The notes beneath the pieces are model-generated. The model had not been told where the DNA came from and did no database searches. It saw only the letters and a program-made list of their open reading frames with translations. The translations under genes were made by a program, and so were the position numbers. A stretch of 64,000 nucleotides of DNA, taken from a virus. Where the stretch lies: UHGV virus genome UHGV-0326994. One strand, given 5' to 3'. Numbering within the stretch: the stretch's first letter is position 1; each line of letters begins with the position of its first letter. This document shows positions 15,543 to 30,219 of this stretch, one piece after another.

Positions 15543-16091
15543 ATGGAAAAAGATAACTTAAAAGAAGTTGAAGGTAACTACCTAGTACTTGACTGGAGTG
15601 ATGTTAGAGAAGCACTTTCTAAAGAAAGTCTTGGCATACTAGAACAGCTTGTCTTCTCGGTACGACATATCAGAGAAGTGAAGAATGGTAAAGAGCCACT
15701 TGAAGGAATCTTTGTAGAAAAGTCTTATCCATTCTATGAAGACACTTTACAGAAAGTTAAAATGTACTTTAAACAGAAGAACCGTAAAGTGGTCACTATG
15801 GTATCTCTTGGTGGACAGAATATGTCTGTGATGGAAGATATCAACCCTAAGAGACCGAGTAAAGGTGTTTGTATAAAAATCACAGGTCATGAAGAGTATA
15901 TCTCAGTGGATGACTTTAGTGCATTCTGTAATGGCTCTTGTGTCTTTAATGGTTTTCACTATGATATCCGAGTGTACCCAATCAAGGGAGATGATATCAT
16001 GATGCAGGTATTCGATAACAACAATGGATTCACTCATTTTTATCAGACCACCAAGTCATCACTAAAGACAGTTCTGGAAACACTGACTTAA
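15543..16091 (+). CDS. hypothetical protein
   Basis: ORF 15486-16091; start moved to MEKDNLK to avoid a 44-nt overlap; last plus-strand gene before the ORF-free region. Confidence 0.45.
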   Translation: MEKDNLKEVEGNYLVLDWSDVREALSKESLGILEQLVFSVRHIREVKNGKEPLEGIFVEKSYPFYEDTLQKVKMYFKQKNRKVVTMVSLGGQNMSVMEDINPKRPSKGVCIKITGHEEYISVDDFSAFCNGSCVFNGFHYDIRVYPIKGDDIMMQVFDNNNGFTHFYQTTKSSLKTVLETLT

Positions 16092-16639
16092 AATATCTTA
16101 AGAGCCTCCTTAATTGGGGGCTTTTTAATTTTTATAAAATTTTATCGGTTGTCCCAACCTCTGGGTCACCATCATATGTGAACAAAATATCTACCCTTCT
16201 TAACAACCTTCTTAATCTTACTCTCTATATAGTTATATAGTACTATATAGTATCTTAGTATCTATCTAGTGGTCTTAATAGCCATCTGTATAACCCTTCT
16301 AACTAGCCCTCTAAACACTCTTCTAACAAGCCTTCTTAACAACCTATACAATCACCTTAACCACCTCTCTATACCCTCTTAGAAGCTCCTATACACCTCT
16401 TAATCTCTATGTCAGCTATGATACCCTCTATAGGTGTTCACTAGGTATTACTAAGCCTCTATATAGACTGTTTTAACAAACTTAACAGGAATATCTTTAC
16501 AGACCTTATCTCACAAGGTCTAACACGGTACTAACAAGGTATCTTATAAGCCTGTTTCCACCTGTATTTTTAAAAGACTGTCTAGGTAATTATTCAGAAT
16601 TTTAAAATTTTTATAAAATAGGACTATCAAGTCATTTTT

Positions 16640-17300
16640 TAGGGTCTTTGAAGGAACTGAAAAATATCTGTAGAAGATGTATATCTGCTTGGTAGCCCTT
16701 AACATCCCTGTAACATCCCCTTTGCAGAATTTTAAAATATCCTTAACAATCTCTTAACAGCTCTTACACCTTCTTAACATCTCTTCAGAGGTCTTAACAG
16801 TTTCTTAACAGGACTAACAAGGGTGTAACAAGTTCTTAACAAGTGCTGAATAGTCTTTACAGAGGCTTAACAGATGACTAACAAGAGCTAACAAGTTAAT
16901 TTTTAAGAGTTATTTTGTTAAGAAAATTAACAAGTTCCTAACAAGTGTTTAATCTTTTTAACAAGCTATTAACATGGTCACTATCTCTTTCTTATCGTTC
17001 CCTTCCCCTTCTCAGTGATTCTCTAAACATACCTCTTAAAAGCTCTCTATAGCTCTTTATAAGCCCTTTTAAGCCTCTTCCTAGTATCTACACCCCAACT
17101 GTACAGATACCTTTTTATAGAGCTTTACAGGAGCTTTAAAGGCTATGTCAAAGACTCTTACAAGGCTTTTACGTGGTCTTAACAGAGATTTAACAAGGGG
17201 CTAACAAGTTGCTAACAAGTGCCTTGAAAGAATAACTATGTAGGGATTGTTAAGAAATTGTTAAGAAAATGTTAAGGGGGCTAGCATTTACGTAACTTTT
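16640..17300. repeat. dense array of short degenerate repeats ((C)TTAACA(A/G), CTAACAAG, TTGTTAAG) in an ORF-free region
   Basis: More than a dozen copies by eye within about 650 bp; no ORF of 60 aa or more between 16092 and 17570. Confidence 0.6.
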
Positions 17301-17693
17301 AAGCTACTTCAAAGTAACTTTATAGCCCCTATAACATACTTTTTAGTGACTATCAAGGGGATTGTTTAACTATTCACAAGATACTAACGAGATAATAAAG
17401 CTTATAACCTTATAAGATTCTTTTAAGCCTCTATAAAGCCCTGTAAAGAGCTTTTTAGGGTGAGTTAATGCAATCCCTTAAGTTAGGTTGATAAGGCTGT
17501 TATAGCGCTTTATAGAGCGTTTAAGGGATTGGTAACAATACCAATTAGTGGGCCATCCCCTTTCTGGGGTTATTGGCTTGTATTTAAGTTGATTTGATAA
17601 AAGGCTATAGAGTAGACTATAGAGTTATTGCTTTTAAGGTCTGATAAGATTCTGAAAAGGTGAGGAAAGGGATTGTATAAGGATTGGATAGAT

Positions 17694-17720
17694 GTAAAAA
17701 AGCCCCTGTGAGGGGCTGTA
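17694..17720 (-). terminator. intrinsic terminator closing the minus-strand block
   Basis: Hairpin GCCCCTGTGAGGGGC with T-run on minus strand; second hairpin GGGGCTAAATAGCCCC at 17732-17747. Confidence 0.55.
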
Positions 17721-17757
17721 TAAAGGTATCTGGGGCTAAATAGCCCCGTTGCGTCGA

Positions 17758-18006
17758 TTAGTTGCAACCTTGCTTATTGTAGTACAGGGAGACAATCAAA
17801 TCACCCCAATAATGGTAATGATACTCATCGTTCAACGCCTCTTTTACTGCATCTTTCCAGAAGTCATCAGTGGGGTTATAGTCTGGGATAACTTGCTTGA
17901 TAACTGTCTTCACTAATGAAAAGCATTCATCAGTTCCACCAATATCAAATTTAACGTCCAGAGTGTAGCAGCCATAAGAATTTACAATTGCGCGGATAGT
18001 TGCCAT
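17758..18006 (-). CDS. hypothetical small protein (82 aa)
   Basis: ORF track; conserved leader ...ctggagattctaaaATG upstream. Confidence 0.5.
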   Translation of the reverse strand: MATIRAIVNSYGCYTLDVKFDIGGTDECFSLVKTVIKQVIPDYNPTDDFWKDAVKEALNDEYHYHYWGDLIVSLYYNKQGCN

Positions 18007-18072
18007 TTTAGAATCTCCAGTTTAGGATTTTATTTAGTGGGGAAGGTCATTCCCTCCCCGTTGATTAGTAAT
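18007..18072 (-). repeat. conserved intergenic element, type A (hairpin GGGGAGGGAATGACCTTCCCC plus RBS leader)
   Basis: Near-identical copies at 18337, 18933, 19495, 21055, 21921. Confidence 0.65.
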
Positions 18073-18336
18073 TTACTGCATATTGGCGTATGTTGCAAGC
18101 CTTTTTTCGTTGTATTTTGTCAGAATCTCACAAGATAAAACATCATATTTTGTAACTGCTTTACCTTTGTCGAGGTCAAAGAATCCGAACGCTTTACCGT
18201 CTTTGAATCCGACAACTTCGTAAGATTCTTTAACGATTTCACCATTGAACAAATCGCTTTCGATGCGGTGAAACAGTGCTACGTCTTCTTTGTCAGTTGC
18301 AATTTGTAAAAGTGTGGTCAGTTCGACGTGTTCCAT
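18073..18336 (-). CDS. hypothetical small protein (87 aa)
   Basis: ORF track; preceded by type A element. Confidence 0.5.
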   Translation of the reverse strand: MEHVELTTLLQIATDKEDVALFHRIESDLFNGEIVKESYEVVGFKDGKAFGFFDLDKGKAVTKYDVLSCEILTKYNEKRLATYANMQ

Positions 18337-18401
18337 TTCGAATCTCCAGTTTAGGATTTTATTTAGTGGGGAAGGTCATTCCCTCCCCGTTGATTGACAA
18401 T
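18337..18401 (-). repeat. conserved intergenic element, type A
   Basis: Same 60-bp sequence as 18007-18072. Confidence 0.65.
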
Positions 18402-18932
18402 TTACAGATTTTTGATTGTCTCGTCAATATCTTTTTCAATATCTTTTAAAGTTTTTTCTAAGTTCTTGATATTGAACGTTAAACCTTCACCGAGAGTCTT
18501 AGAGTAACCGCTAGGGCGTAAATCATGCAGCTTGATTTCTTCCACATTAGATAAGTTTACCATCTCACCATTTGCAGCATAGGCTATAGATACAGTGTTT
18601 TCAGGCGCGTTGTAAAATTTGTTCAAGGACTTGATAGAACGTTCATAAGCCATTTTATAACCGTTTAAAAGGCTTTTAACGTGGTTGTGAACGTTTTTAC
18701 ACTCATCCAAGTAAATTTCTAAGAATAACGGTAATAATTCCGCGACAGCTTGCATAAAGTGAGAGACTACAACGGTTGCAACATTACGACGATGAACGTA
18801 ATAAGCCCCTTTTTCTGATTTGGTAATGGTTGCGAAATGTACACCATTACAACGAAATTCATAGGTATCTTTAACAGGCTTTGACATTACAGCATTTGAA
18901 CGAATGAAGTTGATAGCTTGAAATTTGTTCAT
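18402..18932 (-). CDS. hypothetical protein (176 aa)
   Basis: ORF track; preceded by type A element. Confidence 0.55.
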   Translation of the reverse strand: MNKFQAINFIRSNAVMSKPVKDTYEFRCNGVHFATITKSEKGAYYVHRRNVATVVVSHFMQAVAELLPLFLEIYLDECKNVHNHVKSLLNGYKMAYERSIKSLNKFYNAPENTVSIAYAANGEMVNLSNVEEIKLHDLRPSGYSKTLGEGLTFNIKNLEKTLKDIEKDIDETIKNL

Positions 18933-19000
18933 TTTAGAATCTCCAGTTTAGGACTTTATTTAGTGGGGAGGTTATTGCCTTCCCGTTGATTAGTAATTTA
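18933..19000 (-). repeat. conserved intergenic element, type A variant
   Basis: Variant hairpin GGGAAGGCAATAACCTCCCC with same leader. Confidence 0.6.
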
Positions 19001-19152
19001 CTTGTTTTGATAGTCGATTGCAAGTAATTTTTTGAGCTTATCTATAAAGAATCTTTTAAGTTAATCCCTTTTAGATAAACCCCCTCGAACAAATGTACTA
19101 TTGTCAAGGGGTATCGTCAAGTGATTTTTTAAAGTTTTTTGTAAGTTATTGA

Positions 19153-19494
19153 TTAACTGATGAATATTTTTTCAGGCTTTACATAGCTGATACGCTGACT
19201 TTTTAGCAGGTCATTCCAGATTAGCGCGGCAATATGAGAATAGCCGGATTCACGTAAAAGTTTCATTGTTTTACTTCTCGTCTCAAAGCGGCTTGCGTAG
19301 TATTCACTGTTCAAGGTTGTTTTGTTCCCTTCGTTATCTGTATGGATGATTTGCATCACTTGAAAGGGGCTTACATCCTCACCTTTATTCCACTGCTCAA
19401 AGTATTTTAGGCACTGCATAGGCGATATCTTATCACTTACTTGAGTTGACCAAGATGAACCCTCTTTATCAGTAATTACAGTTACATAAGCCAT
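19153..19494 (-). CDS. hypothetical protein (113 aa)
   Basis: ORF track; preceded by type A element. Confidence 0.5.
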   Translation of the reverse strand: MAYVTVITDKEGSSWSTQVSDKISPMQCLKYFEQWNKGEDVSPFQVMQIIHTDNEGNKTTLNSEYYASRFETRSKTMKLLRESGYSHIAALIWNDLLKSQRISYVKPEKIFIS

Positions 19495-19583
19495 TTTAGA
19501 ATCTCCAGTTTAGGACTTTATTTAGTGGGGAAGGTCATTCCCTCCCCGTTGATTGACAATTTACAGATTTTTATCAGGATTGT
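19495..19583 (-). repeat. conserved intergenic element, type A
   Basis: Same sequence as 18337-18401. Confidence 0.65.
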
Positions 19584-19817
19584 CTAGTCTTTTTCAATGA
19601 TAATTTCATACTGACCATCTACGCTGTCAAAATAGACACCATCTTCATCTTCTGTCTTGAAGTAGCATTGTATGTCATCACTGGCGGGGTAGTCTTGTCT
19701 TGCTATCTGACAGACCTGAACGGCATTTTCTTTACTCCCCGTAAACTCCTCAAGCCCTTTAAAATCACATGAATGACCATTACAAATAGAAAGGATAAGA
19801 TAAACGGTTGTAAGCAT
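19584..19817 (-). CDS. hypothetical small protein (77 aa) with hydrophobic N-terminus
   Basis: ORF track; N-terminus MLTTVYLILSICNG may be a signal peptide. Confidence 0.45.
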   Translation of the reverse strand: MLTTVYLILSICNGHSCDFKGLEEFTGSKENAVQVCQIARQDYPASDDIQCYFKTEDEDGVYFDSVDGQYEIIIEKD

Positions 19818-19883
19818 GATTTAAGCCTCTTAAAAGCCCCTGTGAGGGGCTAATCAGTGTTTATAAGGTAATTGCATAGGTTT

Positions 19884-20426
19884 TTAGAAAAAACTCTTTA
19901 AATCCTCTTCTGCGATGTTTCCCGTTAGTGTGTCCATGATGTCACAAAAAACCTGAATACTGTCCGACTGTTGAACACTTTTAGCAAGTAGTTCTAATGT
20001 CTCATCAAGATAGTTCATATTTTGGTTATCCAGTGAAGGAAGACAAAAAGGTGAATACATAGCGTTAAACTCTGTTGTATAGACCTTTTTAATCCAGTTT
20101 ACATCAAAGTACTCTGTAAAACTCGCTACACTCGACATATTATCACAAGAATAATCATCATTTAGCTCATCCTCTGGAATATCGAGTTCTAAGATAACAA
20201 TATTTTGAGTCTTCATCTGAAAAGCTGCGGTGATAGTGGCATTGCCTAGAGCTTGCTGGATACCTTCAGAGATTATTTCTTCCTCATCATCGCCATAGAT
20301 TTTATTTTCTGGATACACGTAAAAATTGCCGTCCATATCCGAACAATTCCATGCGCCTGATGGTTTATCACCGTTATTAATAAGGTTGAGGAAATTTTCT
20401 TGAGTAGTACCGTGAAAACATTTCAT
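19884..20426 (-). CDS. hypothetical protein (180 aa, acidic)
   Basis: ORF track; preceded by type B element. Confidence 0.5.
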   Translation of the reverse strand: MKCFHGTTQENFLNLINNGDKPSGAWNCSDMDGNFYVYPENKIYGDDEEEIISEGIQQALGNATITAAFQMKTQNIVILELDIPEDELNDDYSCDNMSSVASFTEYFDVNWIKKVYTTEFNAMYSPFCLPSLDNQNMNYLDETLELLAKSVQQSDSIQVFCDIMDTLTGNIAEEDLKSFF

Positions 20427-20513
20427 TTTAGAATCTCCTAGTTTAAGGATTGAGTGGTAAAGCTCTTTATCTGGGGCTTACTTTATCGAACTATAAGCCC
20501 CCTGTAAAGTACT
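20427..20513 (-). repeat. conserved intergenic element, type B (promoter-like -35 TTTACA / -10 TAAAGT overlapping hairpin GGGGCTTA...TAAGCCCC)
   Basis: Minus strand reads TTTACA-17nt-TAAAGT with the 8-bp stem hairpin between; repeated at 20763, 21562, 22635, 23240, 23619, 24086. Confidence 0.6.
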
Positions 20514-20762
20514 TTATTTAACTTTCTTTGAGAAAATTAGTTTAACTGCAACCGTAGGAATCTCGTCAGCGCTTGTAACTAGCATTACTTTTTGAGTAAC
20601 CAACTTATAACCGTTCTTTGCAGCGTATGCGGTAAAACGGTTAACGTTGTAACTATAAGTTTTTGGTGTGCTATCTGGCATGTGGTAAAGAAAAGGTTTA
20701 CCCAAATTTTCTTCTTGTGTCAACAGTCGGCAGGTATCAGGTATATTGAAATAGTTCATCAT
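20514..20762 (-). CDS. hypothetical small protein (82 aa)
   Basis: ORF track. Confidence 0.45.
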   Translation of the reverse strand: MMNYFNIPDTCRLLTQEENLGKPFLYHMPDSTPKTYSYNVNRFTAYAAKNGYKLVTQKVMLVTSADEIPTVAVKLIFSKKVK

Positions 20763-20856
20763 TTTTGAATCTCCTAGTTTAAGGATTGAGTGGTAAAGCT
20801 CTTTATCTGGGGCTTAAGATATCAACTTTTAAGCCCCCTGTAAAGTACTTTATCAG
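20763..20856 (-). repeat. conserved intergenic element, type B
   Basis: Near-identical to 20427-20513. Confidence 0.6.
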
Positions 20857-21054
20857 TTATTTTTTGACAACTTTTAAAACTGCAAGATAACCTAAGCAAT
20901 AAGAATCACCGAAGAGAGTTCTCCCCATGAAAGAATCCTCTTTGATATCCTTTGCAGTGACAGTTTTTTCTACGCCGTGGGAAAGGACTACATCACCAAC
21001 TTTGATGTCTTTGATGTGTGTTGTTTCAATGGTTAAGCCGTTAATAATAGCCAT
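20857..21054 (-). CDS. hypothetical small protein (65 aa)
   Basis: ORF track. Confidence 0.4.
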   Translation of the reverse strand: MAIINGLTIETTHIKDIKVGDVVLSHGVEKTVTAKDIKEDSFMGRTLFGDSYCLGYLAVLKVVKK

Positions 21055-21156
21055 TTTAGAATCTCCTAGTTTAAGGACTTTATTTAGTGGGGAAGGTCAT
21101 TCCCTCCCCGTTGATGTGCAATTTAGCCTATCTAAAAATCAGTGTCAATAATTTTT
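21055..21156 (-). repeat. conserved intergenic element, type A
   Basis: Hairpin GGGGAGGGAATGACCTTCCCC plus leader. Confidence 0.6.
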
Positions 21157-21561
21157 TTAGAGTTCTGCGTAAATTGCATCGCAGATATTACGGAAGTCAT
21201 GATTTGACAAATTACGTTGTAACCAAGTGGCGAAGAAATCAGCGATTGCAAAATTAGCATCATACTCGACAGATAACCACACTTTAACAGCAAATCGGAA
21301 CATTTTCAAGTCTAACTCTTTATTCATTACCTTAGATTTGCCTAACATGTCGGACATCTCATATTGTGCACCGTCTAGCGTGATACCTGCTGCAACGTCA
21401 GACAATGAGTTTTTTACGTTTTCAACGTCTAAGATAACACTTTGAATCTTCCCGATAATGTTGTGCAATGTTTCATCCGGTGCTGATGATGTGATAACAT
21501 TAATCCGGTTAACGGTCAAACGTGCTTTTAAAATTGATAACTCACGGTTATTAATAGCCAT
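21157..21561 (-). CDS. hypothetical protein (134 aa)
   Basis: ORF track; start moved to MAINN because the track start is a TTG inside the conserved leader. Confidence 0.5.
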   Translation of the reverse strand: MAINNRELSILKARLTVNRINVITSSAPDETLHNIIGKIQSVILDVENVKNSLSDVAAGITLDGAQYEMSDMLGKSKVMNKELDLKMFRFAVKVWLSVEYDANFAIADFFATWLQRNLSNHDFRNICDAIYAEL

Positions 21562-21647
21562 TTTTAAGTTCTCCAATTTAGGATTGAGTGGTAAAGTTCT
21601 TTATCTGGGGCTTACTTTATCGAACTATAAGCCCCTTGTAAAGTACT
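21562..21647 (-). repeat. conserved intergenic element, type B
   Basis: Hairpin GGGGCTTA...TAAGCCCC with promoter-like hexamers. Confidence 0.6.
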
Positions 21648-21920
21648 TTATACTAAATGCAGCTTTTTACCTTTTACTATGATGTAACTAGATGCGCTAT
21701 TGCTGCATACATCTTGGTAAATTCTGCGCAAACGTCCTTCATAGTGTACTTTCCAACTGGTTGGAATCTTTTTCCCGTATCCTGTAGCAGTTTTTTGGAG
21801 TCCTGCAACTTGCCAATTTAAGATGTGTTGCTCAGCCCGTAAATCTTCAAAGCACATCACACCATCTACATAGTGACGCAAGGTGACATTTAAGGTGCGA
21901 CCGTTGTTAGTAGTATACAT
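21648..21920 (-). CDS. hypothetical small protein (90 aa)
   Basis: ORF track. Confidence 0.45.
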   Translation of the reverse strand: MYTTNNGRTLNVTLRHYVDGVMCFEDLRAEQHILNWQVAGLQKTATGYGKKIPTSWKVHYEGRLRRIYQDVCSNSASSYIIVKGKKLHLV

Positions 21921-22011
21921 TTTCAGAATCTCCTAGTTTAAGGACTTTATTTAGTGGGGAAGGTCATTCCCTCCCCGTTGATGTGTAATTTAACCCATCT
22001 AAAAATCAGTG
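21921..22011 (-). repeat. conserved intergenic element, type A
   Basis: Same as 21055-21156. Confidence 0.6.
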
Positions 22012-22344
22012 TCAACAGTTATGTTTTCGTTTGCTCAATTCTTGAACAATTACAGCATAGTAGTCTTTTAAGTCACTGATATTTAAAGCATTTATCAGAG
22101 AATTATAATCATCCACCAACTGAAAATCATCTTTGAAGATGTCACTTATCTGATAGGTTTTCGCTTTATATCTGAAGCTCATCTCTAGCCGCTTTATTTG
22201 CTCATCGCTTAAACGCTCCAGAAAGCTCCCTACAAGGTTATTGCTAACCTGTTGTGTGATTGCCTTATTTGCTAGATTATAGGCTTTATATGCCTTATAG
22301 AGCGCGAAAATGGCAATGATTGCAGTGATACCAGTCATTAACAT
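22012..22344 (-). CDS. hypothetical protein (110 aa) with N-terminal TM segment
   Basis: N-terminus MLMTGITAIIAIFALYKAY is hydrophobic. Confidence 0.45.
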   Translation of the reverse strand: MLMTGITAIIAIFALYKAYKAYNLANKAITQQVSNNLVGSFLERLSDEQIKRLEMSFRYKAKTYQISDIFKDDFQLVDDYNSLINALNISDLKDYYAVIVQELSKRKHNC

Positions 22345-22634
22345 GGTGTTTCCTCTTTACGTGATACTTTACCATTTACAGTTATCTCATAGGATTCTAA
22401 TAAATCGCTTTTAGACTTTACAGGACTTTTAAAAGTATCATCATAGATATTAACTTGCAATACAGGTTTTTTATATTCCCTGCAACTATTCCATAAGCAA
22501 ATCACTACACGACGGCCTTTTATTTTGCCGTGTAACCATTCCATAACATCATGACTATTCCTTGATGTTTCAATGAAATCAATTTTGTTAAGTAGCTTGC
22601 TTAGATTTTCCCTAACTTTATTTGATAATTTCAT
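22338..22634 (-). CDS. hypothetical protein (98 aa)
   Basis: ORF track. Confidence 0.45.
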   Translation of the reverse strand: MKLSNKVRENLSKLLNKIDFIETSRNSHDVMEWLHGKIKGRRVVICLWNSCREYKKPVLQVNIYDDTFKSPVKSKSDLLESYEITVNGKVSRKEETPC

Positions 22635-22726
22635 TTTTGAGTCTCCTAGTTTAAGGGCTTTATTTGATAAATCTCTTTATCTGGGGCTATCCTACCAGCT
22701 TGATAACCCCGTGTAAAGAAATCTAT
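22635..22726 (-). repeat. conserved intergenic element, type B variant
   Basis: Divergent copy with same leader. Confidence 0.5.
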
Positions 22727-23239
22727 TTAGTTCTTAAAGATATTCATCACTGAATCTTTCAACGATTCCAAACGTTCTAATACTTCAGTTTCTGCGTCTG
22801 AATTGCTCACCTCTTCTTTTAGTCTATCCTCTAAATCATCACCGTCACGATAGCACCAATCGAAAGCATAACCAAGATAAAAACTTTCTAAAACCGTGTT
22901 ACCGTTTGCATCCACAACTTTCGCGGCAAGGTTGTACTCTGAAGCCTCTAAATCTCTTTCGAGTTCTTTCTGTAAGCTGGTGTAAGCCTCTTTTGATGGA
23001 TTTTCCCGACCTTGTTTTGCATAGTCACTTGAAAGCTGTTTCAGGCTGTAATGTAAAGGGATTGCATATTTAAATCCATTACGCTGATAAATAGGATTTT
23101 TAACAGTAACACCGCCTTGATGGTTGTCTGTAAATTCCCAATTATCAAGGTTATGGCTTGCTTCGTAGCAATTAACAGCTTCGTAAATGATGGAAAATTT
23201 TTCTTTTACAACTTCAAAGGTAGCGTCTACAGTTTTCAT
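22727..23239 (-). CDS. hypothetical protein (170 aa)
   Basis: ORF track. Confidence 0.5.
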   Translation of the reverse strand: MKTVDATFEVVKEKFSIIYEAVNCYEASHNLDNWEFTDNHQGGVTVKNPIYQRNGFKYAIPLHYSLKQLSSDYAKQGRENPSKEAYTSLQKELERDLEASEYNLAAKVVDANGNTVLESFYLGYAFDWCYRDGDDLEDRLKEEVSNSDAETEVLERLESLKDSVMNIFKN

Positions 23240-23324
23240 TTTTGAATCTCCAGTTTAGGATTTAGTGGTAAAGCTCTTTATCTGGGGCTTAAGATATCAA
23301 CTTTTAAGCCCCTTGTAAAGTACT
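23240..23324 (-). repeat. conserved intergenic element, type B
   Basis: Near-identical to 20763-20856. Confidence 0.6.
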
Positions 23325-23618
23325 TTATTTGTTAATTTTCAGCTTTGCATAACCTCTCATTGTACGGATGGGCGATGTTAAGGCCATGCGTCTGATATAT
23401 GCCTTTTTCGTGTATACGCTTGTCTTCCCGATAGTGTTTACACATGTAAAAAGGTTTACCGGTGAATTTTTTAACTTCAACTGCTTATCAGCCTTCACGC
23501 CCCACCTTACAGCGGATTGTTTCCCGTTGTCAATCACTTTCCCGCATAACTTTTTAGCTATGTTGCGAGCGTCATCACGAGTCTTTGCAGTAATTACAAC
23601 GTTTTTGATAATAGCCAT
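23325..23618 (-). CDS. hypothetical protein (97 aa)
   Basis: ORF track start trimmed to MAIIKN; shares MAI- N-terminus with ORF 21157-21561. Confidence 0.45.
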   Translation of the reverse strand: MAIIKNVVITAKTRDDARNIAKKLCGKVIDNGKQSAVRWGVKADKQLKLKNSPVNLFTCVNTIGKTSVYTKKAYIRRMALTSPIRTMRGYAKLKINK

Positions 23619-23704
23619 TTTTAAGTTCTCCAATTTAGGATTGAGTGGTAAAGCTCTTTATCTGGGGCTTACTTTATCGAACTATAAGCCCCTTGTAAAG
23701 TACT
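23619..23704 (-). repeat. conserved intergenic element, type B
   Basis: Near-identical to 21562-21647. Confidence 0.6.
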
Positions 23705-24085
23705 TTATTTAATTTTGAAAATTGTTACATAACCATCACTACCGATTATTTGAGACACTCCAGCTTTTTCTACTTGATAGCCCATATTTTCAAGATGATA
23801 AACAGCATCATCATAACCATATGCGCCGCCTTGATAACGTCTCTTATCGCATCTTACTAATACCTTTCCACGTCCAGCAAGTGCATTCAGTACAGCTTTT
23901 TCACTTGAGAGTGTGCCATCTAACATGGTTGCCGTGTAATGGTTGATTCTATTCCCGTTTACATCATACTTAAAATTGTATGCGTGAACAACAATAACGT
24001 TGCCTTTGAAATTTTCATCAAGTGACTTCTCCAGTACTTTGCGAAAGTTGTCTTTGTTGATGAATTTCGGTGCACGATAAGCCAT
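23705..24085 (-). CDS. hypothetical protein (126 aa)
   Basis: ORF track. Confidence 0.5.
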   Translation of the reverse strand: MAYRAPKFINKDNFRKVLEKSLDENFKGNVIVVHAYNFKYDVNGNRINHYTATMLDGTLSSEKAVLNALAGRGKVLVRCDKRRYQGGAYGYDDAVYHLENMGYQVEKAGVSQIIGSDGYVTIFKIK

Positions 24086-24174
24086 TTTTGAATCTCCTAG
24101 TTTAAGGTTAGTTAGTAAAGCTCTTTATCTGGGGCTTACTTTATCGAACTATAAGCCCCTTGTAAAGTACTTTA
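24086..24174 (-). repeat. conserved intergenic element, type B
   Basis: Same repeat family. Confidence 0.6.
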
Positions 24175-24381
24175 TTAGATATTGTAGTAATAAACTGCTG
24201 TCTGTCTTATGTACTTTCTTGTATTTCTTGTAAGGTAGCAATTAGAGTTTATAGCTGTTTCTACATAGTTGCAATAGTCAGCTTCTGATATTCTGGACCA
24301 TACGTCACAGATTTTCATGTAAAAACGTTTTACCTTTGTGTTAACGTTAGTTGTAACCATCAATTCGCGACTGTACAGCAT
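24175..24381 (-). CDS. hypothetical small protein (68 aa)
   Basis: ORF track; first gene downstream of the 24.4-24.9 kb regulatory intergenic region. Confidence 0.4.
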   Translation of the reverse strand: MLYSRELMVTTNVNTKVKRFYMKICDVWSRISEADYCNYVETAINSNCYLTRNTRKYIRQTAVYYYNI

Positions 24382-24639
24382 TTTTAGATTCTCCAGTTTA
24401 GGAAGTGGGCTTGATTGCCCGTCTGATGCAAATATTAGATAACCATACTCAAAGAGTCAATAGGAATTTTAAAAATATTTTTGGCAAAAATGTAATGAAA
24501 CGGGTGCGCGCGAATACCACAAAACAGAACACAAATCAAGAATTATTTTCCAATCCGCTACAAATTTTTCTGTTGACTTTTCTTTTCGGATGTGGTAGCC
24601 TTGTGAGAAATGGCGACATTCCCACCTGCACCCACCTAC

Positions 24640-24815
24640 CTGCACAATTCTAAAATGATTTTTCTTGCCCGACCTGAGCGGGGTCTGCACGTTTTGAAAA
24701 TAAAAAAGCTCTTTGGAGATTATCTGCACAGTTTGAAAATGAATTTTCTCTTTGGAGTTCAAAATTTTCTCTACAGATTTCTCTAGAGAAATACACCTGC
24801 ACAATCCTGAAATAA
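24640..24815. repeat. four direct repeats of a 19-bp motif CTGCAC[AG]NT[TC][CT]TGAAAAT
   Basis: Copies near 24641, 24688, 24725, 24797 within the 500-bp intergenic region. Confidence 0.5.
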
Positions 24816-24888
24816 AAAAGCCCTCCTTACCTGAAAAATTTACCAGATAAGAAAGGCTTAGTCTATTGTGAATATCCTACAGAGTTTC

Positions 24889-25674
24889 TTAGTTCTTTGC
24901 GTCTAAGAAGGTAACTTCCGGTGAAGAGAAAATTTCCTCAACATCCTCATCAGTTCTTGCATAGATATATGTATCTGCATCACTGCCAAATGTTACTGCA
25001 ATCCTGTGATTGTTCTTTGACAGGTGGGTAACTAGAGCGTTACTTAGAGACATCTTTTCAACCGGAGGGTTACTTTGATGTATCTTGCCTTTTCTTCGTC
25101 TGAAGAGGGTAACTGCATCATTAGTGAACACTACTACACCTGCAAAGTATTCTGGTTCACAGTAGTTCTTCCAACCTGAGCGTAACTTGTGGTACATCTC
25201 TCCTTCGTAGACATACAGATACACATCTACACTCTTCATCACCTGATTGATAATAACTGTGACAGCTTGAGGGTCAAGTCCACCGATTCCTGCGCCAATC
25301 ATAGGTAAACCAACTTTCTTTAACTGGTTCACTTCACAGTATCTGTTGAGCTGGTTCAAAGATGACTCTAAAGCACTGTATCGGGCATCTTTACCAGTCT
25401 TAAGCTGAGTGTAAAGGTTAGCTATACGACCTTGTTTTAAACGTGCTACAGAGAAATTACCTAGCAAATTTTCACAGGGTTTGTGGCCTATACCACCTGC
25501 ATACAGATAAACTTCTGTATCAGTCTCATATGCTTTTGGGTAAAGTTTAGAAATCTTGTCAGCGATACCTGCACCCATTAAGTTCATACAGTTGCAACCG
25601 TGACCGATGACGTCAAACTTACCTTTATCAAATGCTGCAAAGATATCACCATTGATGATTTTTACAATACCCAT
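24889..25674 (-). CDS. macro domain (ADP-ribose binding/hydrolase-like) protein with C-terminal extension
   Basis: N-terminal motifs IINGDIF, VIGHGCNCMNLMGAGIA and LPMIGAGIGGLD match macro-domain signature blocks. Confidence 0.65.
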   Translation of the reverse strand: MGIVKIINGDIFAAFDKGKFDVIGHGCNCMNLMGAGIADKISKLYPKAYETDTEVYLYAGGIGHKPCENLLGNFSVARLKQGRIANLYTQLKTGKDARYSALESSLNQLNRYCEVNQLKKVGLPMIGAGIGGLDPQAVTVIINQVMKSVDVYLYVYEGEMYHKLRSGWKNYCEPEYFAGVVVFTNDAVTLFRRRKGKIHQSNPPVEKMSLSNALVTHLSKNNHRIAVTFGSDADTYIYARTDEDVEEIFSSPEVTFLDAKN

Positions 25675-25875
25675 TTAACATCTCTCCCAAGATTCTTTAT
25701 CTTCTGAAGGTTTTACACGTTGTCCTTCGTGGTCTACCCAGATACACCCGCAGCCTTCACAGATTACTGGCATTGCATAACCAGCTTTAAAGTCATCTTC
25801 AGTGATAAGACCTTTTAAGTCTCCTGTATCACGTCCGAACATTTCGATAGAACAGTCTTTGCAGAAGTCAGCCAC
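25675..25875 (-). CDS. hypothetical Cys-rich small protein (66 aa)
   Basis: CKDC...CEGCGC pattern suggests zinc binding. Confidence 0.45.
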   Translation of the reverse strand: MADFCKDCSIEMFGRDTGDLKGLITEDDFKAGYAMPVICEGCGCIWVDHEGQRVKPSEDKESWERC

Positions 25876-26101
25876 GAATAATTACCTCTTGAGTGATAAT
25901 ACCTTTACCACAACGACTTTTAAAATCTTCTAATGGTTCAGAGAAGAAGTCACGGAAATGGTTACTATACTCACGTTTCAGCACCTTCTTGTAAGTTAAC
26001 ACATCTTTTTCTGCAAACGGGATGACTTCATTTCTCCCTATGAATACTGCTGAACTTACAATCTTACGAGTCTTTTTATTTCTGGCTAGTATTACTTTCA
26101 T
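25868..26101 (-). CDS. hypothetical protein (77 aa)
   Basis: ORF track. Confidence 0.4.
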   Translation of the reverse strand: MKVILARNKKTRKIVSSAVFIGRNEVIPFAEKDVLTYKKVLKREYSNHFRDFFSEPLEDFKSRCGKGIITQEVIIRG

Positions 26102-30140: not shown

Positions 30141-30219
30141 CTTATTACTCTCTCTTGTCAGTTAATAAATCATTTTGTGAGGCTATTCTAAGGGGCTTCA
30201 AAGCCCCTTGTCAAACATT

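What the first reader, a model, noticed from the sequence alone, without database searches (positions are those of the whole stretch)
17758..24420. Hyperplastic block of 16 small ORFs, each preceded by one of two conserved promoter/stem-loop elements
Fourteen intergenic spacers of 65-100 bp fall into two near-identical families. Type B contains a sigma70-like -35 TTTACA and -10 TAAAGT with a perfect 8-bp stem hairpin between them, followed by a conserved RBS leader. Type A has a GC-rich hairpin plus the same leader. Promoter/stem-loop repeats of this kind resemble the promoter-early stem-loops described in T4-type phages, where they mediate modular gene shuffling. The small ORFs have no recognisable functions and are likely early host-takeover or anti-defence genes.
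Basis: seen in the sequence. Interest (0 to 1): 0.65.

Follow-up and report, generated by a model that had tools for sequence, protein, structure and literature searches.

The report
Repeated promoter–hairpin gene cassettes, Felix O1-like phage
In this Felix O1-type phage, almost every one of 16 small genes of unknown function carries its own copy of a repeated promoter, RNA hairpin and ribosome-binding leader, and related phages gain, lose and swap these genes by recombining between the repeats, as T4-type phages do with different elements.

Summary
The window is a Felixounavirus genome. On the minus strand, 24381→17758, lie 16 small ORFs, all in PHROG families of unknown function. Thirteen are preceded by one of two ~95-nt repeats (7 type B, 6 type A) and the first by a related variant. 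Full copies occur nowhere else in the 64 kb.

Both types, not only B, carry sigma70-like promoters. B is TTTACA-N17/18-TAnnnT, kept in 87/87 distinct variants with 12 different -10 hexamers. A is an A-tract, TTGnnn-N17-TAAATT, often inside the upstream gene's 3' end.

The hairpins are conserved as sense-strand structures: 98.5% of cells paired, compensatory changes, 128 G·U against 2 A·C. None has a U-tract, so they are not canonical terminators. In A the hairpin sits 2-4 nt after the predicted start. In B a ~20-bp imperfect hairpin encloses the promoter, with the -10 in its loop.

Across 21 complete related blocks there are 20 different gene orders. 29 of 38 breakpoints lie in the repeats, with 60-104 nt of junction homology.

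The elements behave like T4 PeSLs but differ in architecture and lineage. The repeats were noted before without explanation (Felix O1 2010, Mordin 2015). Promoter activity and hairpin role remain unmeasured.

The parts
24818..24859 (-). Canonical intrinsic terminator that ends the upstream operon, after the phosphatase gene 24889-25674
   Evidence: 17-pair stem followed by TTTTTATTT. Same sequence as terminator t13 of Felix O1.
24382..24460 (-). Block-start element, related to type A: -35 TTGACT 24455-24460, -10 TAATAT 24432-24437, short hairpin GGGCAATCAAGCCC, shared leader, SD 24391-24394
   Evidence: Mordin has GGGA..TCCC at the same place, a compensatory change.
24175..24381 (-). ORF g1, 68 aa, unknown function
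   Evidence: phrog_5293; present in 11 of 21 related blocks.
24083..24176 (-). Type B element: -35 TTTACA 24161-24166, -10 TAAAGT 24138-24143, GC stem-loop 24131-24159, SD 24094-24097, ATG 24083-24085
23705..24085 (-). ORF g2, 126 aa, unknown function
   Evidence: phrog_4495; absent from ASO1A, with a 100-nt junction overlap inside B elements.
23616..23709 (-). Type B element: -35 23694-23699, -10 TAAAGT 23671-23676, stem-loop 23664-23692, SD 23628-23631
   Evidence: 99% identical over 100 nt to the copy at 21552-21651.
23325..23618 (-). ORF g3, 97 aa (ATG 23618), unknown function
   Evidence: phrog_5089; lost in 3 relatives with 103-104 nt junction homology.
23237..23329 (-). Type B element: -35 23314-23319, -10 TATCTT 23291-23296, stem-loop 23284-23312, SD 23248-23251
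22727..23239 (-). ORF g4, 170 aa, unknown function
   Evidence: phrog_4190; lost in 5 relatives (B/B junction) and replaced by family 51 in L024.
22632..22727 (-). Divergent type B element: -35 22712-22717, -10 TAGGAT 22689-22694, stem-loop GGGGTTATC..GATAGCCCC 22683-22710, SD 22643-22646
   Evidence: Its inner and outer stems differ from the other copies by compensatory changes.
22012..22634 (-). ORFs g5 (22338-22634, 98 aa) and g6 (22012-22344, 110 aa). They overlap by 7 nt with no element between them and nearly always occur together in relatives
   Evidence: phrog_4401, phrog_4375.
21921..22016 (-). Type A element, extended form: -35 TTGACA 22010-22015 (inside the end of g6), -10 TAAATT 21987-21992, hairpin 21956-21976, SD 21930-21933
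21648..21920 (-). ORF g7, 90 aa, family 11 paralogue
   Evidence: phrog_3436.
21559..21652 (-). Type B element: -35 21637-21642, -10 TAAAGT 21614-21619, stem-loop 21607-21635, SD 21571-21574
21157..21561 (-). ORF g8, 134 aa (ATG 21561), unknown function
   Evidence: phrog_4327; present in all related blocks.
21052..21149 (-). Type A element, extended form: -35 TTGACA 21143-21148, -10 TAAATT 21120-21125, hairpin 21089-21109, SD 21063-21066
   Evidence: (92% identical over 105 nt to the copy at 21921-22025).
20857..21054 (-). ORF g9, 65 aa, family 11 paralogue
   Evidence: phrog_3623. It changes places with g10 in L011 and L023.
20760..20854 (-). Type B element: -35 20839-20844, -10 TATCTT 20816-20821, stem-loop 20809-20837, SD 20771-20774
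20514..20762 (-). ORF g10, 82 aa, variable cassette
   Evidence: phrog_9030; present in only 6 of 21 blocks; its loss leaves one B element with up to 100 nt of junction homology.
20424..20518 (-). Type B element: -35 20503-20508, -10 TAAAGT 20480-20485, stem-loop 20473-20501, SD 20435-20438
19884..20426 (-). ORF g11, 180 aa, universal in relatives
   Evidence: phrog_3303.
19831..19851 (-). Terminator-like hairpin inside the block, AGCCCCTCACAGGGGCT plus UUUU, between g11 and g12. This is the only junction with a hairpin followed by a U-run
   Evidence: It is the same 17-nt stem-loop as the block-end terminator at 17701-17717.
19584..19817 (-). ORF g12, 77 aa, with no A or B element upstream
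   Evidence: phrog_4640.
19492..19586 (-). Type A element: -35 TAGACA 19581-19586, -10 TAAATT 19558-19563, hairpin 19527-19547, SD 19503-19506
   Evidence: Relatives carry insertions of families 49 and 53 here, flanked by a duplicated 22-24 nt of leader.
19153..19494 (-). ORF g13, 113 aa, universal in relatives
   Evidence: phrog_4318.
18930..19024 (-). Type A element at the 3' end of a 220-nt spacer: -35 TTGCAA 19018-19023, -10 TAAATT 18995-19000, variant hairpin GGGAAGGCAATAACCTCCCC 18965-18984, SD 18941-18944
18402..18932 (-). ORF g14, 176 aa
   Evidence: phrog_4725; lost in L013 with a 61-nt A/A junction.
18336..18427 (-). Type A element: -35 TTGACG 18422-18427 (inside g14), -10 TAAATT 18399-18404 (contains the g14 stop codon 18402-18404), hairpin 18368-18388, SD 18344-18347
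18073..18336 (-). ORF g15, 87 aa, variable cassette
   Evidence: phrog_7022; lost in 6 relatives with both breakpoints in A elements and 69-72 nt overlap.
18004..18099 (-). Type A element: -35 TTGCAA 18093-18098 (inside g15), -10 TAAATT 18070-18075, hairpin 18039-18059, SD 18015-18018
17758..18006 (-). ORF g16, 82 aa, last gene of the block
   Evidence: phrog_4559; present in 17 of 21 blocks.
17701..17717 (-). Canonical intrinsic terminator that closes the block: AGCCCCTCACAGGGGCT followed by TTTTTT
   Evidence: It corresponds by position to Felix O1 t23.

Best explanation
The block is one leftward transcription unit. It runs from a strong promoter at 24460-24432 to a terminator at 17717-17701. 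Nearly every small ORF in it is packaged as an autonomous expression cassette, and each cassette starts with a ~95-nt composite element made of three modules.

(1) A host sigma70-type promoter. Type A has an A-tract, TTGnnn, 17 nt and TAAATT, and the -35 and often the stop codon of the upstream gene are embedded in it. Type B has TTTACA, 17-18 nt and TAnnnT.

(2) A stem-loop selected to pair on the sense strand, most simply as RNA. It lacks a U-tract, so it is not a canonical terminator. In type A it begins 10 nt after the -10, that is 2-4 nt after the predicted start. There it would act as a 5'-terminal stabiliser of the cassette's own mRNA and as a 3' barrier for read-through RNA. [quoted passage not shown] It can form only in read-through RNA from upstream cassettes, where it would separate or stabilise cistrons by acting as a processing or exonuclease barrier.

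(3) A shared leader, CCT(T)AAACT(A)GGAGAnTCnAAAATG, that supplies a strong GGAG Shine-Dalgarno 7-8 nt from the ATG.

Every ORF is bounded at its stop and at its start by near-identical sequence in the same orientation. Homologous recombination between elements therefore deletes, inserts, duplicates and swaps whole ORFs without damaging neighbours or their expression, and this makes the block hyperplastic across the Ounavirinae.

Shown here: the repeats, the conservation pattern of the promoter positions, the pairing and covariation, the absence of U-tracts, and the breakpoints with junction homology. Inferred: promoter activity, start sites, the RNA-level role of the hairpins and early timing.
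For: Repeats. 13 full copies, all minus strand, confined to 18004-24176 of the 64 kb.

Promoters. The consensus scan hits all 7 B, 4 of 6 A and the block-start element; the other two A copies are TTGCAA-17-TAAATT. Among 87 distinct B cores from 33 loci, TTTACA is kept in 87/87 and TAnnnT at 17 nt (81) or 18 nt (6) in 87/87, with 12 different hexamers. So -10 positions 1, 2 and 6 are fixed while 3-5 drift. The same columns are invariant across Felixounavirus, Mooglevirus and Kolesnikvirus. The type A T and G of the -35 TTG (>=98% each; the middle T >=75%) and an upstream A-tract are conserved even though they lie inside different upstream coding sequences.

Hairpins. MFE -17.9 (A) and -20 to -22.6 kcal/mol (B), z about -2.4 to -3. 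On 134 distinct B copies, 98.5% of cells are paired against 30-62% when partners are slid. Four pairs change on both sides, 26 such cells against 3.9 in shuffles (0/500). Erwinia phage copies have GGTG..CACC instead of GGGG..CCCC. Non-Watson-Crick cells are 128 G·U on the sense strand against 2 A·C. Type A stems fold better in sense than antisense in most variants.

Not terminators. None of the 13 hairpins is called terminator-like, whereas the block's two flanks are.

Leader. 361 copies; the CCT..GGAG and CCTT..AGGAG forms are never mixed, and both forms combine with A and with B.

Plasticity. 20 ORF orders among 21 complete blocks, 10-20 ORFs each, only 5 families universal. One order swap (A[13]B[11]B[14] against A[11]B[13]B[14]) and family 53 at two different positions. 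29 of 38 modal breakpoints lie in elements that cover 20% of the block, P about 2e-13. Junction homology is 60-104 nt for same-type pairs and 21-25 nt, in the shared leader, for A x B pairs.

Expression. Felix O1 RT-PCR finds homologous block ORFs 16, 20, 21 and 22 maximal at 5 min.
Against: No transcription start, promoter activity, RNA half-life or processing site has been measured for any Ounavirinae phage in the literature I could search.

Type B -10 hexamers are weak matches to TATAAT (for example TAAAGT, TATCTT), and two type A -35 hexamers match only 4 of 6 positions.

The G·U asymmetry comes mainly from three or four columns and from related copies, so the number of independent events is small. 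It also cannot separate sense-strand RNA from sense-strand single-stranded DNA.

Elements fill almost all the intergenic space, so the enrichment of breakpoints in elements is partly an enrichment at gene borders. The junction-homology lengths are the stronger argument.

Two indel types (loss of g5, loss of g12) show no element homology.

Four Felix O1 block ORFs peak at 25 min rather than 5 min, so 'early' is not uniform.
Confidence: 0.65

Rival explanations
1. True PeSL-type promoter-terminator cassettes. The stem-loops stop transcription coming from the upstream cassette, and the adjacent promoter restarts it, insulating each gene exactly as described for T4-type phages.
For: Composite promoter, GGGG...CCCC stem-loop, SD and ATG in a hyperplastic block, at indel borders. 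PeSL stems are also often polyG/polyC, and the T4/PST PeSL promoter consensus TTTACW-N17-TAYWAT resembles type B. WebGeSTer called the type A hairpins terminators in the ASO1A record.
Against: No hairpin is followed by a U-run, and the scan calls none of them, while it does call the two block-flanking terminators. The phage uses a U-tract hairpin where it apparently needs one (19831-19851, 17701-17717). In type A the stem-loop lies downstream of the promoter, so a terminator there would abort the cassette's own transcript. In type B the 3' arm overlaps the -10 to +1 region. PeSL stem-loops lie upstream of the -35.
Confidence: 0.12
2. Type B hairpins, and perhaps type A, are host RNase III or RNase E processing sites. 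They would cut a long read-through early transcript into stable monocistronic mRNAs, as in the T7 early region, with the promoters secondary.
For: The full type B fold is a ~20-bp interrupted helix (6 + 5 + 9 pairs with a 1x1 and a 3x3 internal loop) spanning the whole intercistronic gap. That size and shape match RNase III substrates such as the T7 early sites (my own knowledge, not tested here). The structure can exist only in read-through RNA. It is selected on the sense strand. There are no terminators between cassettes.
Against: There are no cleavage data. It does not explain why TTTACA and TAnnnT are invariant inside the structure. Rfam has no matching family. Type A stems of 8 bp are too short for RNase III.
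Confidence: 0.25
3. The inverted repeats are double-stranded DNA binding sites (operators) for a phage or host regulator that switches the whole set of cassettes on or off together, as was proposed for the ESAS inverted repeats of cluster K mycobacteriophages.
For: Type B contains two copies of the 12-bp palindrome TAAAGnnCTTTA flanking the GC stem. GATAAAGAG is invariant in three genera. The GC half-sites are about 21 bp apart centre to centre. The site overlaps -35 to +15, an ideal position for a repressor.
Against: Mismatches are strand-asymmetric (128 G·U against 2 A·C), which a duplex site does not predict. Arms change by compensatory pairs within a single genome (GGGGCTTA/TAAGCCCC against GGGGTTATC/GATAGCCCC). 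Several unrelated stem sequences coexist in one phage, so one protein could not read them all. The invariance of TAAAG is explained by pairing with the promoter-constrained CTTTACA.
Confidence: 0.1
4. The repeats are selfish or neutral. They would be a small mobile or gene-converting sequence that has spread through intergenic gaps, with the promoter-like and hairpin features incidental.
For: Near-identity of some copies (99% over 100 nt, extending into the first codons) shows ongoing gene conversion or recent duplication. The elements are mosaics of modules.
Against: All copies share one orientation and an exact register with stop and start codons. Selective conservation of -35, of -10 positions 1, 2 and 6, and of the SD, alongside variable neighbours. 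Conservation of the architecture in three genera with diverged sequence. Absence from the other 57 kb of the window.
Confidence: 0.05

Closest known systems
PeSLs (promoter-early stem-loops) of T4-type phages (Arbiol et al. 2010, PMC2839356; Comeau et al. 2014, PMC4122927)
   Same: Repeated intergenic composite of a sigma70-like early-type promoter, a G/C stem-loop, SD and ATG. Clustered in a hyperplastic region of small ORFs of unknown function. Found at insertion, deletion and replacement borders between close relatives, with crossover inside the repeat. The type B -35 TTTACA matches the T4/PST PeSL consensus TTTACW.
   Different: The order of modules differs: a PeSL runs stem-loop, AT-rich region, -35, -10; here the stem-loop follows the -10 (type A) or encloses the promoter (type B). 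There is no U-tract, so terminator function is unlikely, whereas the PeSL stem-loop was shown to terminate. There are two coexisting families that share one leader. The phage lineage is unrelated (Ounavirinae). Mini-circles are untested.
Start-associated sequences (SAS/ESAS) of cluster K mycobacteriophages (Pope et al. 2011, PMC3203893); the comparison was made for phage Mordin (PMC4611695)
   Same: A conserved asymmetric motif containing the SD a few nt before ATG starts of a subset of non-structural genes, in one orientation, with about half the copies preceded by an inverted repeat with a variable spacer. The upstream stop codon often lies inside the element.
   Different: No sequence similarity (GGGATAGGAGCCC against CCTAAACTGGAGA). 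ESAS arm variation does not support RNA pairing and was read as a protein-binding site; here the variation does support pairing. No promoter was described in SAS/ESAS. A role in gene shuffling was not proposed for SAS.
Felix O1 '57-bp and 39-bp direct repeats' (Whichard et al. 2010, PMC3185647) and annotated promoter/terminator pairs in GenBank MZ726791
   Same: These are the same sequences. The 57-bp repeat is the type B core, and the 39-bp repeat is the extended type A promoter.
   Different: They were only listed as repeats, with no function, structure or evolutionary role assigned. That paper states that how transcription is regulated is unknown.
5'-terminal stem-loop mRNA stabilisers (ompA-type) and the RNase III-processed intercistronic hairpins of the T7 early region (own knowledge, not tested here)
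   Same: Type A places a stable hairpin 2-4 nt from the predicted 5' end. Type B is a ~20-bp interrupted intercistronic helix in a polycistronic early transcript.
   Different: No experimental data exist for these elements. Here the hairpins are fused to promoters and repeated 13 times.
Halovirus HF2 intergenic repeats carrying promoters (PMC8707807; title and abstract only)
   Same: Two classes of intergenic repeats in a virus genome, shown there to carry promoters.
   Different: Archaeal promoters and a different architecture. I did not read beyond the abstract.

Membership tests
PeSL (T4-type promoter-early stem-loop) | Intergenic composite motif containing a sigma70-like promoter (-35, N17, -10) | tested here: met
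   a promoter-like site in 13 of 13 elements, with critical positions conserved across 87 variants.
PeSL (T4-type promoter-early stem-loop) | [quoted passage not shown] 3) | tested here: not met
   the type A stem begins 10 nt downstream of the -10; the type B stem spans the promoter spacer to about +1.
PeSL (T4-type promoter-early stem-loop) | Stem-loop acts as a transcription terminator or attenuator | tested here: inconclusive
   No U-tract after any of the 13 stems, and none is called by the terminator scan. A functional assay is not possible with these tools.
PeSL (T4-type promoter-early stem-loop) | [quoted passage not shown] | tested here: met
   Type A has an A-tract 5-6 nt upstream of the -35. 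Type B has AAATAAAGTA.
PeSL (T4-type promoter-early stem-loop) | SD and start codon of the downstream gene at the 3' end | tested here: met
PeSL (T4-type promoter-early stem-loop) | Concentrated in hyperplastic regions and found at indel or replacement borders between close relatives | tested here: met
PeSL (T4-type promoter-early stem-loop) | Formation of encapsidated mini-circles by recombination between neighbouring elements | not testable with these tools
   Needs inverse PCR or long-read data on phage DNA.
PeSL (T4-type promoter-early stem-loop) | Occurs in T4-like myoviruses | tested here: not met
   Felixounavirus, subfamily Ounavirinae.
SAS/ESAS of cluster K mycobacteriophages | 13-bp consensus GGGATAGGAGCCC 3-7 bp upstream of the start codon | tested here: not met
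   The leader here is CCT(T)AAACT(A)GGAGA, 7-8 nt before the ATG. It is analogous in position only.
SAS/ESAS of cluster K mycobacteriophages | 17-bp imperfect inverted repeats whose variation does not support RNA pairing | tested here: not met
   Here 98.5% of cells pair, with compensatory changes and G·U bias.
Intrinsic (rho-independent) terminator | G+C-rich stem-loop immediately followed by a U-tract | tested here: not met
   The sequences after the stems are ACTAAATAAA (type A) and AGATAAAGAG (type B).
Sigma70 promoter | -35 and -10 hexamers spaced 17 +/- 1 nt, with T1, A2 and T6 of the -10 conserved | tested here: met
   Activity was not measured.
RNase III processing site (T7 early type) | About two turns of interrupted dsRNA in an intercistronic position, cleaved by RNase III | tested here: inconclusive
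   The shape is compatible for type B. Cleavage is not testable here.
Rfam families | Match to any curated RNA family | tested here: not met
   no match at E <= 1 in 16000-26000.

The most novel reading that the evidence does not exclude
Ounavirinae phages may have evolved, independently of T4, a modular 'gene-cassette platform' in which the promoter is built into a conserved sense-strand hairpin. In at least two unrelated stem families the -10 sits in the loop (the Felix type B stem and one Erwinia phage stem); a second Erwinia family has the same layout but only a weak -10-like hexamer. If so, read-through from upstream cassettes, RNA processing and local initiation would be mechanistically coupled, and a shared SAS-like leader would let one factor control translation of the whole accessory-gene set. 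The same elements would serve as portable recombination linkers, possibly via mini-circles, that exchange accessory or anti-defence genes among genera infecting Escherichia, Salmonella, Citrobacter and Erwinia.
Probability: 0.15. Interest if true: 0.75.

Novelty: new variant of a known kind. Interest (0 to 1): 0.5.

Why it matters
Felix O1-like phages are widely used for Salmonella and E. coli typing, biocontrol and therapy, yet the Felix O1 genome paper states that how their transcription is regulated is unknown.

These elements give a concrete, testable map of 14 promoters and RNA structures for the most variable part of the genome.

They also extend promoter-linked cassette shuffling (PeSLs) beyond T4-type phages to an unrelated subfamily, with a different architecture. 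That suggests convergent evolution of 'regulatory linker' repeats as a general way for lytic phages to trade accessory genes.

Practically, the elements mark safe insertion and deletion points, and ready-made expression signals, for engineering these phages. They also flag the cassette ORFs as candidates for host-range or anti-defence functions.

Tried and rejected
(1) Rfam scan of 16-26 kb at E <= 1: no match.

(2) A single IUPAC pattern for the leader missed the variant with the coupled 1-nt insertions. It was replaced by nhmmer profiles.

(3) The first breakpoint analysis, a local alignment with an artificial anchor, jumped across large gaps and gave meaningless overlaps for several events. 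It was redone with a banded extension.

(4) An arm-swap control for the variable inner stem of type B was blurred by register ambiguity in the regex (13 sequences scored 0). I rely instead on the covariance-model alignment and pair counts.

(5) The idea that the block lies next to the physical genome end (first DNA injected) was rejected. The UAB_Phi87 record, whose ends were determined experimentally, starts in the tRNA cluster, about 16 kb away.

(6) An alternative type B promoter using the upstream TAAAGT, which would put the hairpin in the 5' UTR as in type A, was rejected. There is no conserved -35 at 16-18 nt upstream in the seven copies.

(7) I looked for transcriptome, TSS or promoter data for Felixounavirus in the library and found none. 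The Bas63 knockout screen does not address these elements.

(8) PHROG searches for ORF function returned only families of unknown function.

Full report
**Identity and layout.**
The 7.4 kb around the finding matches 259 phage records, the best at about 91% identity, and all of them are Felixounavirus or other Felix O1-like myoviruses. All genes of the block lie on the minus strand. Sixteen ORFs of 65-180 aa run from 24381 down to 17758. Two mechanical TTG starts (23633, 21576) are extensions into the leader; the real starts are ATG 23618 and 21561. All 16 proteins match PHROG families strongly, and every one of those families has unknown function. A canonical terminator (24859-24818) closes the upstream operon. 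A strong promoter-like site (TTGACT-17-TAATAT, 24460-24432) opens the block, and a canonical terminator (17717-17701) closes it.

**The observation.**
Written in gene orientation, the junctions fall into two repeat families.
- Type B (7 copies): ...TAAAGTACTTTACAnGGGGCTTA-loop-TAAGCCCCAGATAAAGAGCTTTACC...CCT(T)AAACT(A)GGAGAnTCnAAAATG.
- Type A (6 copies): A-tract, TTGnnn, 17 nt, TAAATT, nnnAATCAAC, GGGGAGGGAATGACCTTCCCC, ACTAAATAAAnT, then the same leader.
- The region before the first ORF has the type A layout with a different short hairpin.
- One junction is a 7-nt gene overlap. One carries a different hairpin followed by UUUU (19831-19851).

nhmmer profiles find the 13 copies at E = 1e-20 to 1e-28 and no other full copy in the 64 kb. 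Rfam has nothing.

**Promoters.**
The consensus scan hits all seven type B elements, four type A elements and the block-start element. The other two type A copies read TTGCAA-17-TAAATT.

The stronger argument is the conservation pattern. I collected the elements from 8 GenBank relatives and 24 IMG/VR contigs. Among 87 distinct type B cores, TTTACA is present in all 87. A TAnnnT hexamer lies 17 nt (81 cores) or 18 nt (6 cores) downstream in all 87, with twelve different hexamers. The three positions that matter most for sigma70 recognition are fixed while positions 3-5 and the rest of the loop drift. The same columns stay invariant when Citrobacter phage Mordin and Erwinia phage Roscha1 are added.

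In type A, the T and G of the -35 TTG are at least 98% conserved (the middle T at least 75%), and an A-tract upstream is also conserved. This holds although in most copies they lie inside the 3' end of different upstream genes, and the stop codon of the upstream gene is often the TAA of TAAATT. Activity has not been measured. The Felix O1 paper reports by RT-PCR that homologous block ORFs 16, 20, 21 and 22 peak at 5 min and ORFs 14, 17, 19 and 23 at 25 min, and it says the regulation of transcription is unknown.

**Hairpins.**
The type A stem (8 pairs including one G·U) folds at -17.9 kcal/mol with z = -3.

Type B folds into a longer interrupted hairpin: an outer stem UAAAGU/GCUUUA, a middle stem CUUUA/UAAAG, a 3x3 internal loop and a 9-pair GC-rich apical stem, at -20 to -22.6 kcal/mol. 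[quoted passage not shown] The -35 sits at the internal loop and the -10 in the apical loop.

A covariance model built from 14 copies in three genera retrieved 150 sense-strand copies, 134 of them distinct. On these:
- 98.5% of cells form standard pairs, against 30-62% when partners are slid by 1-3 columns.
- Four pairs change on both sides.
- There are 26 such cells against 3.9 in shuffles (0 of 500 shuffles reach it).

Erwinia phage copies carry GGTG..CACC where the others have GGGG..CCCC. Inner arms occur as CTTAA/TTAAG, TTATC/GATAG and similar pairs.

Departures from Watson-Crick pairing are 128 G·U on the sense strand against 2 A·C, and most type A variants fold better in sense than in antisense. 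This strand asymmetry argues for a single-stranded sense structure, most simply RNA, and against a duplex protein-binding palindrome or a cruciform. It rests on few columns and on related copies, so it is suggestive rather than conclusive.

None of the 13 stems is followed by a U-run, whereas the block's real terminators are. They are therefore not canonical terminators.

**Where the hairpins sit relative to the transcripts (inferred).**
- In type A the stem begins 10 nt after the -10. A start about 7 nt after the -10 leaves 2-4 unpaired nucleotides before a stable stem. From my own knowledge, that is the arrangement of 5'-terminal stabilisers.
- In type B the predicted start falls at the end of the 3' arm. 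The cassette's own transcript therefore has an unstructured leader (-5.2 kcal/mol, z = -0.6), and the hairpin can form only in read-through RNA from upstream. There are no terminators between cassettes, so such RNA is expected.
- A role as an intercistronic barrier or processing site is the most economical reading. An RNase III site of the T7 early type is a serious alternative for type B.

**Leader.**
The last ~25 nt are shared by A and B. Across 361 leaders in the sampled loci, the forms CCT-AAAYT-GGAG (231) and CCTT-AAACT-AGGAG (130) are never mixed. This fits a small anti-SD/SD pairing, but it is also what two lineages 6 nt apart would give. Both forms combine with both A and B, so the elements are themselves mosaics. 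The Erwinia phage leader (CCTTAtAAAGGAAT) keeps the same complementarity with a different SD.

**Plasticity.**
Cassette maps show a conserved order with frequent presence/absence of single ORFs, one order swap (A[13]B[11]B[14] in L011 and L023 against A[11]B[13]B[14] here) and one family at two different positions. Among 21 loci that contain the whole block there are 20 different ORF orders with 10-20 ORFs each. Only five families are universal, while the four genes just upstream are constant.

A banded extension from flanking anchor genes locates where homology to the window ends:
- Loss of g2, g3, g4, g10, g14 or g15 leaves a single intact element with 60-104 nt of overlap between left and right homology.
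- Events joining an A to a B element overlap by 21-25 nt, which is the shared leader.
- Insertions of families 49, 53 and 38 duplicate 22-36 nt.
- Two events (loss of g5, loss of g12) show no homology.

29 of 38 modal breakpoints lie in elements that cover 20% of the block (binomial P about 2e-13). Part of this enrichment simply reflects gene borders, because the elements fill the intergenic gaps. Some copies are 99% identical over 100 nt, extending into the first codons, which indicates ongoing conversion.

**Distribution and prior knowledge.**
A type B query finds 290 phage records, 3-9 places each, covering Escherichia, Salmonella, Shigella, Citrobacter and Erwinia phages of the Ounavirinae.
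- The Felix O1 genome paper listed the type B core and the type A promoter as 57-bp and 39-bp direct repeats, without comment.
- The Mordin announcement noted the 26-bp leader repeat before 8 genes and compared it with the SAS of cluster K mycobacteriophages, with role unknown.
- One GenBank record annotates promoter and terminator pairs at type A sites. Four others annotate the hairpins as terminators on the wrong strand.
- I found no paper that links these elements to promoters embedded in hairpins or to cassette shuffling, and none that reports PeSLs outside T4-like phages. The library is incomplete.

**Comparison.**
PeSLs are defined as a stem-loop, shown to terminate, just upstream of an AT-rich region and a sigma70-like early promoter, followed by SD and ATG. 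They cluster in hyperplastic regions, sit at indel borders and form mini-circles. The present elements share the composition, the location and the evolutionary behaviour. They fail on the position of the stem-loop, probably on terminator function, and on lineage. They work like PeSLs as recombination linkers and expression cassettes but are not members of that family.

SAS/ESAS share the start-associated position and an upstream inverted repeat. They differ in sequence, and ESAS variation does not support pairing.

**Verdict.**
This is a real, strongly non-random and evolutionarily active feature. It is best described as a new architectural variant of promoter-linked shuffling cassettes, in a phage subfamily where only the bare repeats had been recorded. 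Promoter activity, transcription start sites and the function of the hairpins remain to be shown experimentally.

Noticed in passing
window 16700-17750: About 1 kb without ORFs, where the rightward unit (8-16.5 kb) and the leftward unit converge. It is packed with 10-11-nt periodic repeats (CTTAACA, TAACAAG, CTTTATAGAG). It is not the physical genome end: the UAB_Phi87 record, whose ends were determined experimentally, starts in the tRNA cluster. Function unknown.
   Followed up: partly
window 24400-24890: Non-coding stretch between the upstream terminator and the block's first promoter, with three copies of a CTGCAC..TTTGAAAAT.. repeat (families D12 and D13). Relatives carry extra small ORFs here (families 30, 40, 42).
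   Followed up: no
window 19835-19851 and 17701-17717 (minus strand): The identical 17-nt stem-loop AGCCCCTCACAGGGGCT occurs twice. One copy lies inside the block with only 4 U (between g11 and g12). The other lies at the block end with 6 U and is called a terminator. The internal copy may split the block into two sub-units.
   Followed up: partly
window 21648-21920 and 20857-21054: Two paralogous ORFs (family 11, 90 and 65 aa; phrog_3436 and phrog_3623). Each is preceded by the extended type A element, 92% identical over 105 nt. This points to a duplication or conversion of promoter plus gene.
   Followed up: partly
window 588-6354 (minus strand): Cluster of 25 tRNA genes, typical of Felix O1-like phages.
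   Followed up: no
window 30163-30222 (minus strand): Weak nhmmer hit to the hairpin part of type B (E = 0.012), outside the block. Not examined.
   Followed up: no
L034 (Erwinia phage Roscha1) 6600-6660, 9100-9160, 11080-11450: Two further hairpin families (GGGGTTA..TAACCCC and GAGGGGT..ATCCCCTC) lie between a TTGACA- or TTTACA-like -35 and the leader. In the second family a TAAAAT -10 sits in the loop; in the first only a weak GACTAT hexamer is found at 17 nt. So the 'promoter inside a hairpin' layout recurs in at least one unrelated stem sequence.
   Followed up: partly
L002 (KhF1) and related GenBank records KT184313-KT184316: In KhF1 the type A hairpins are annotated as rho-independent terminators on the strand opposite to the genes. 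The related records KhF2, KhF3 and XTG1 list four 'terminator' features each under the match. Most ORFs of the block are left unannotated in KhF1.
   Followed up: no
L032 (IMG/VR contig of 142 kb): A 42%-identical homologue of ORF g11 sits in an unrelated, much larger phage contig with no A or B elements nearby. At least this cassette gene also travels without the elements.
   Followed up: no
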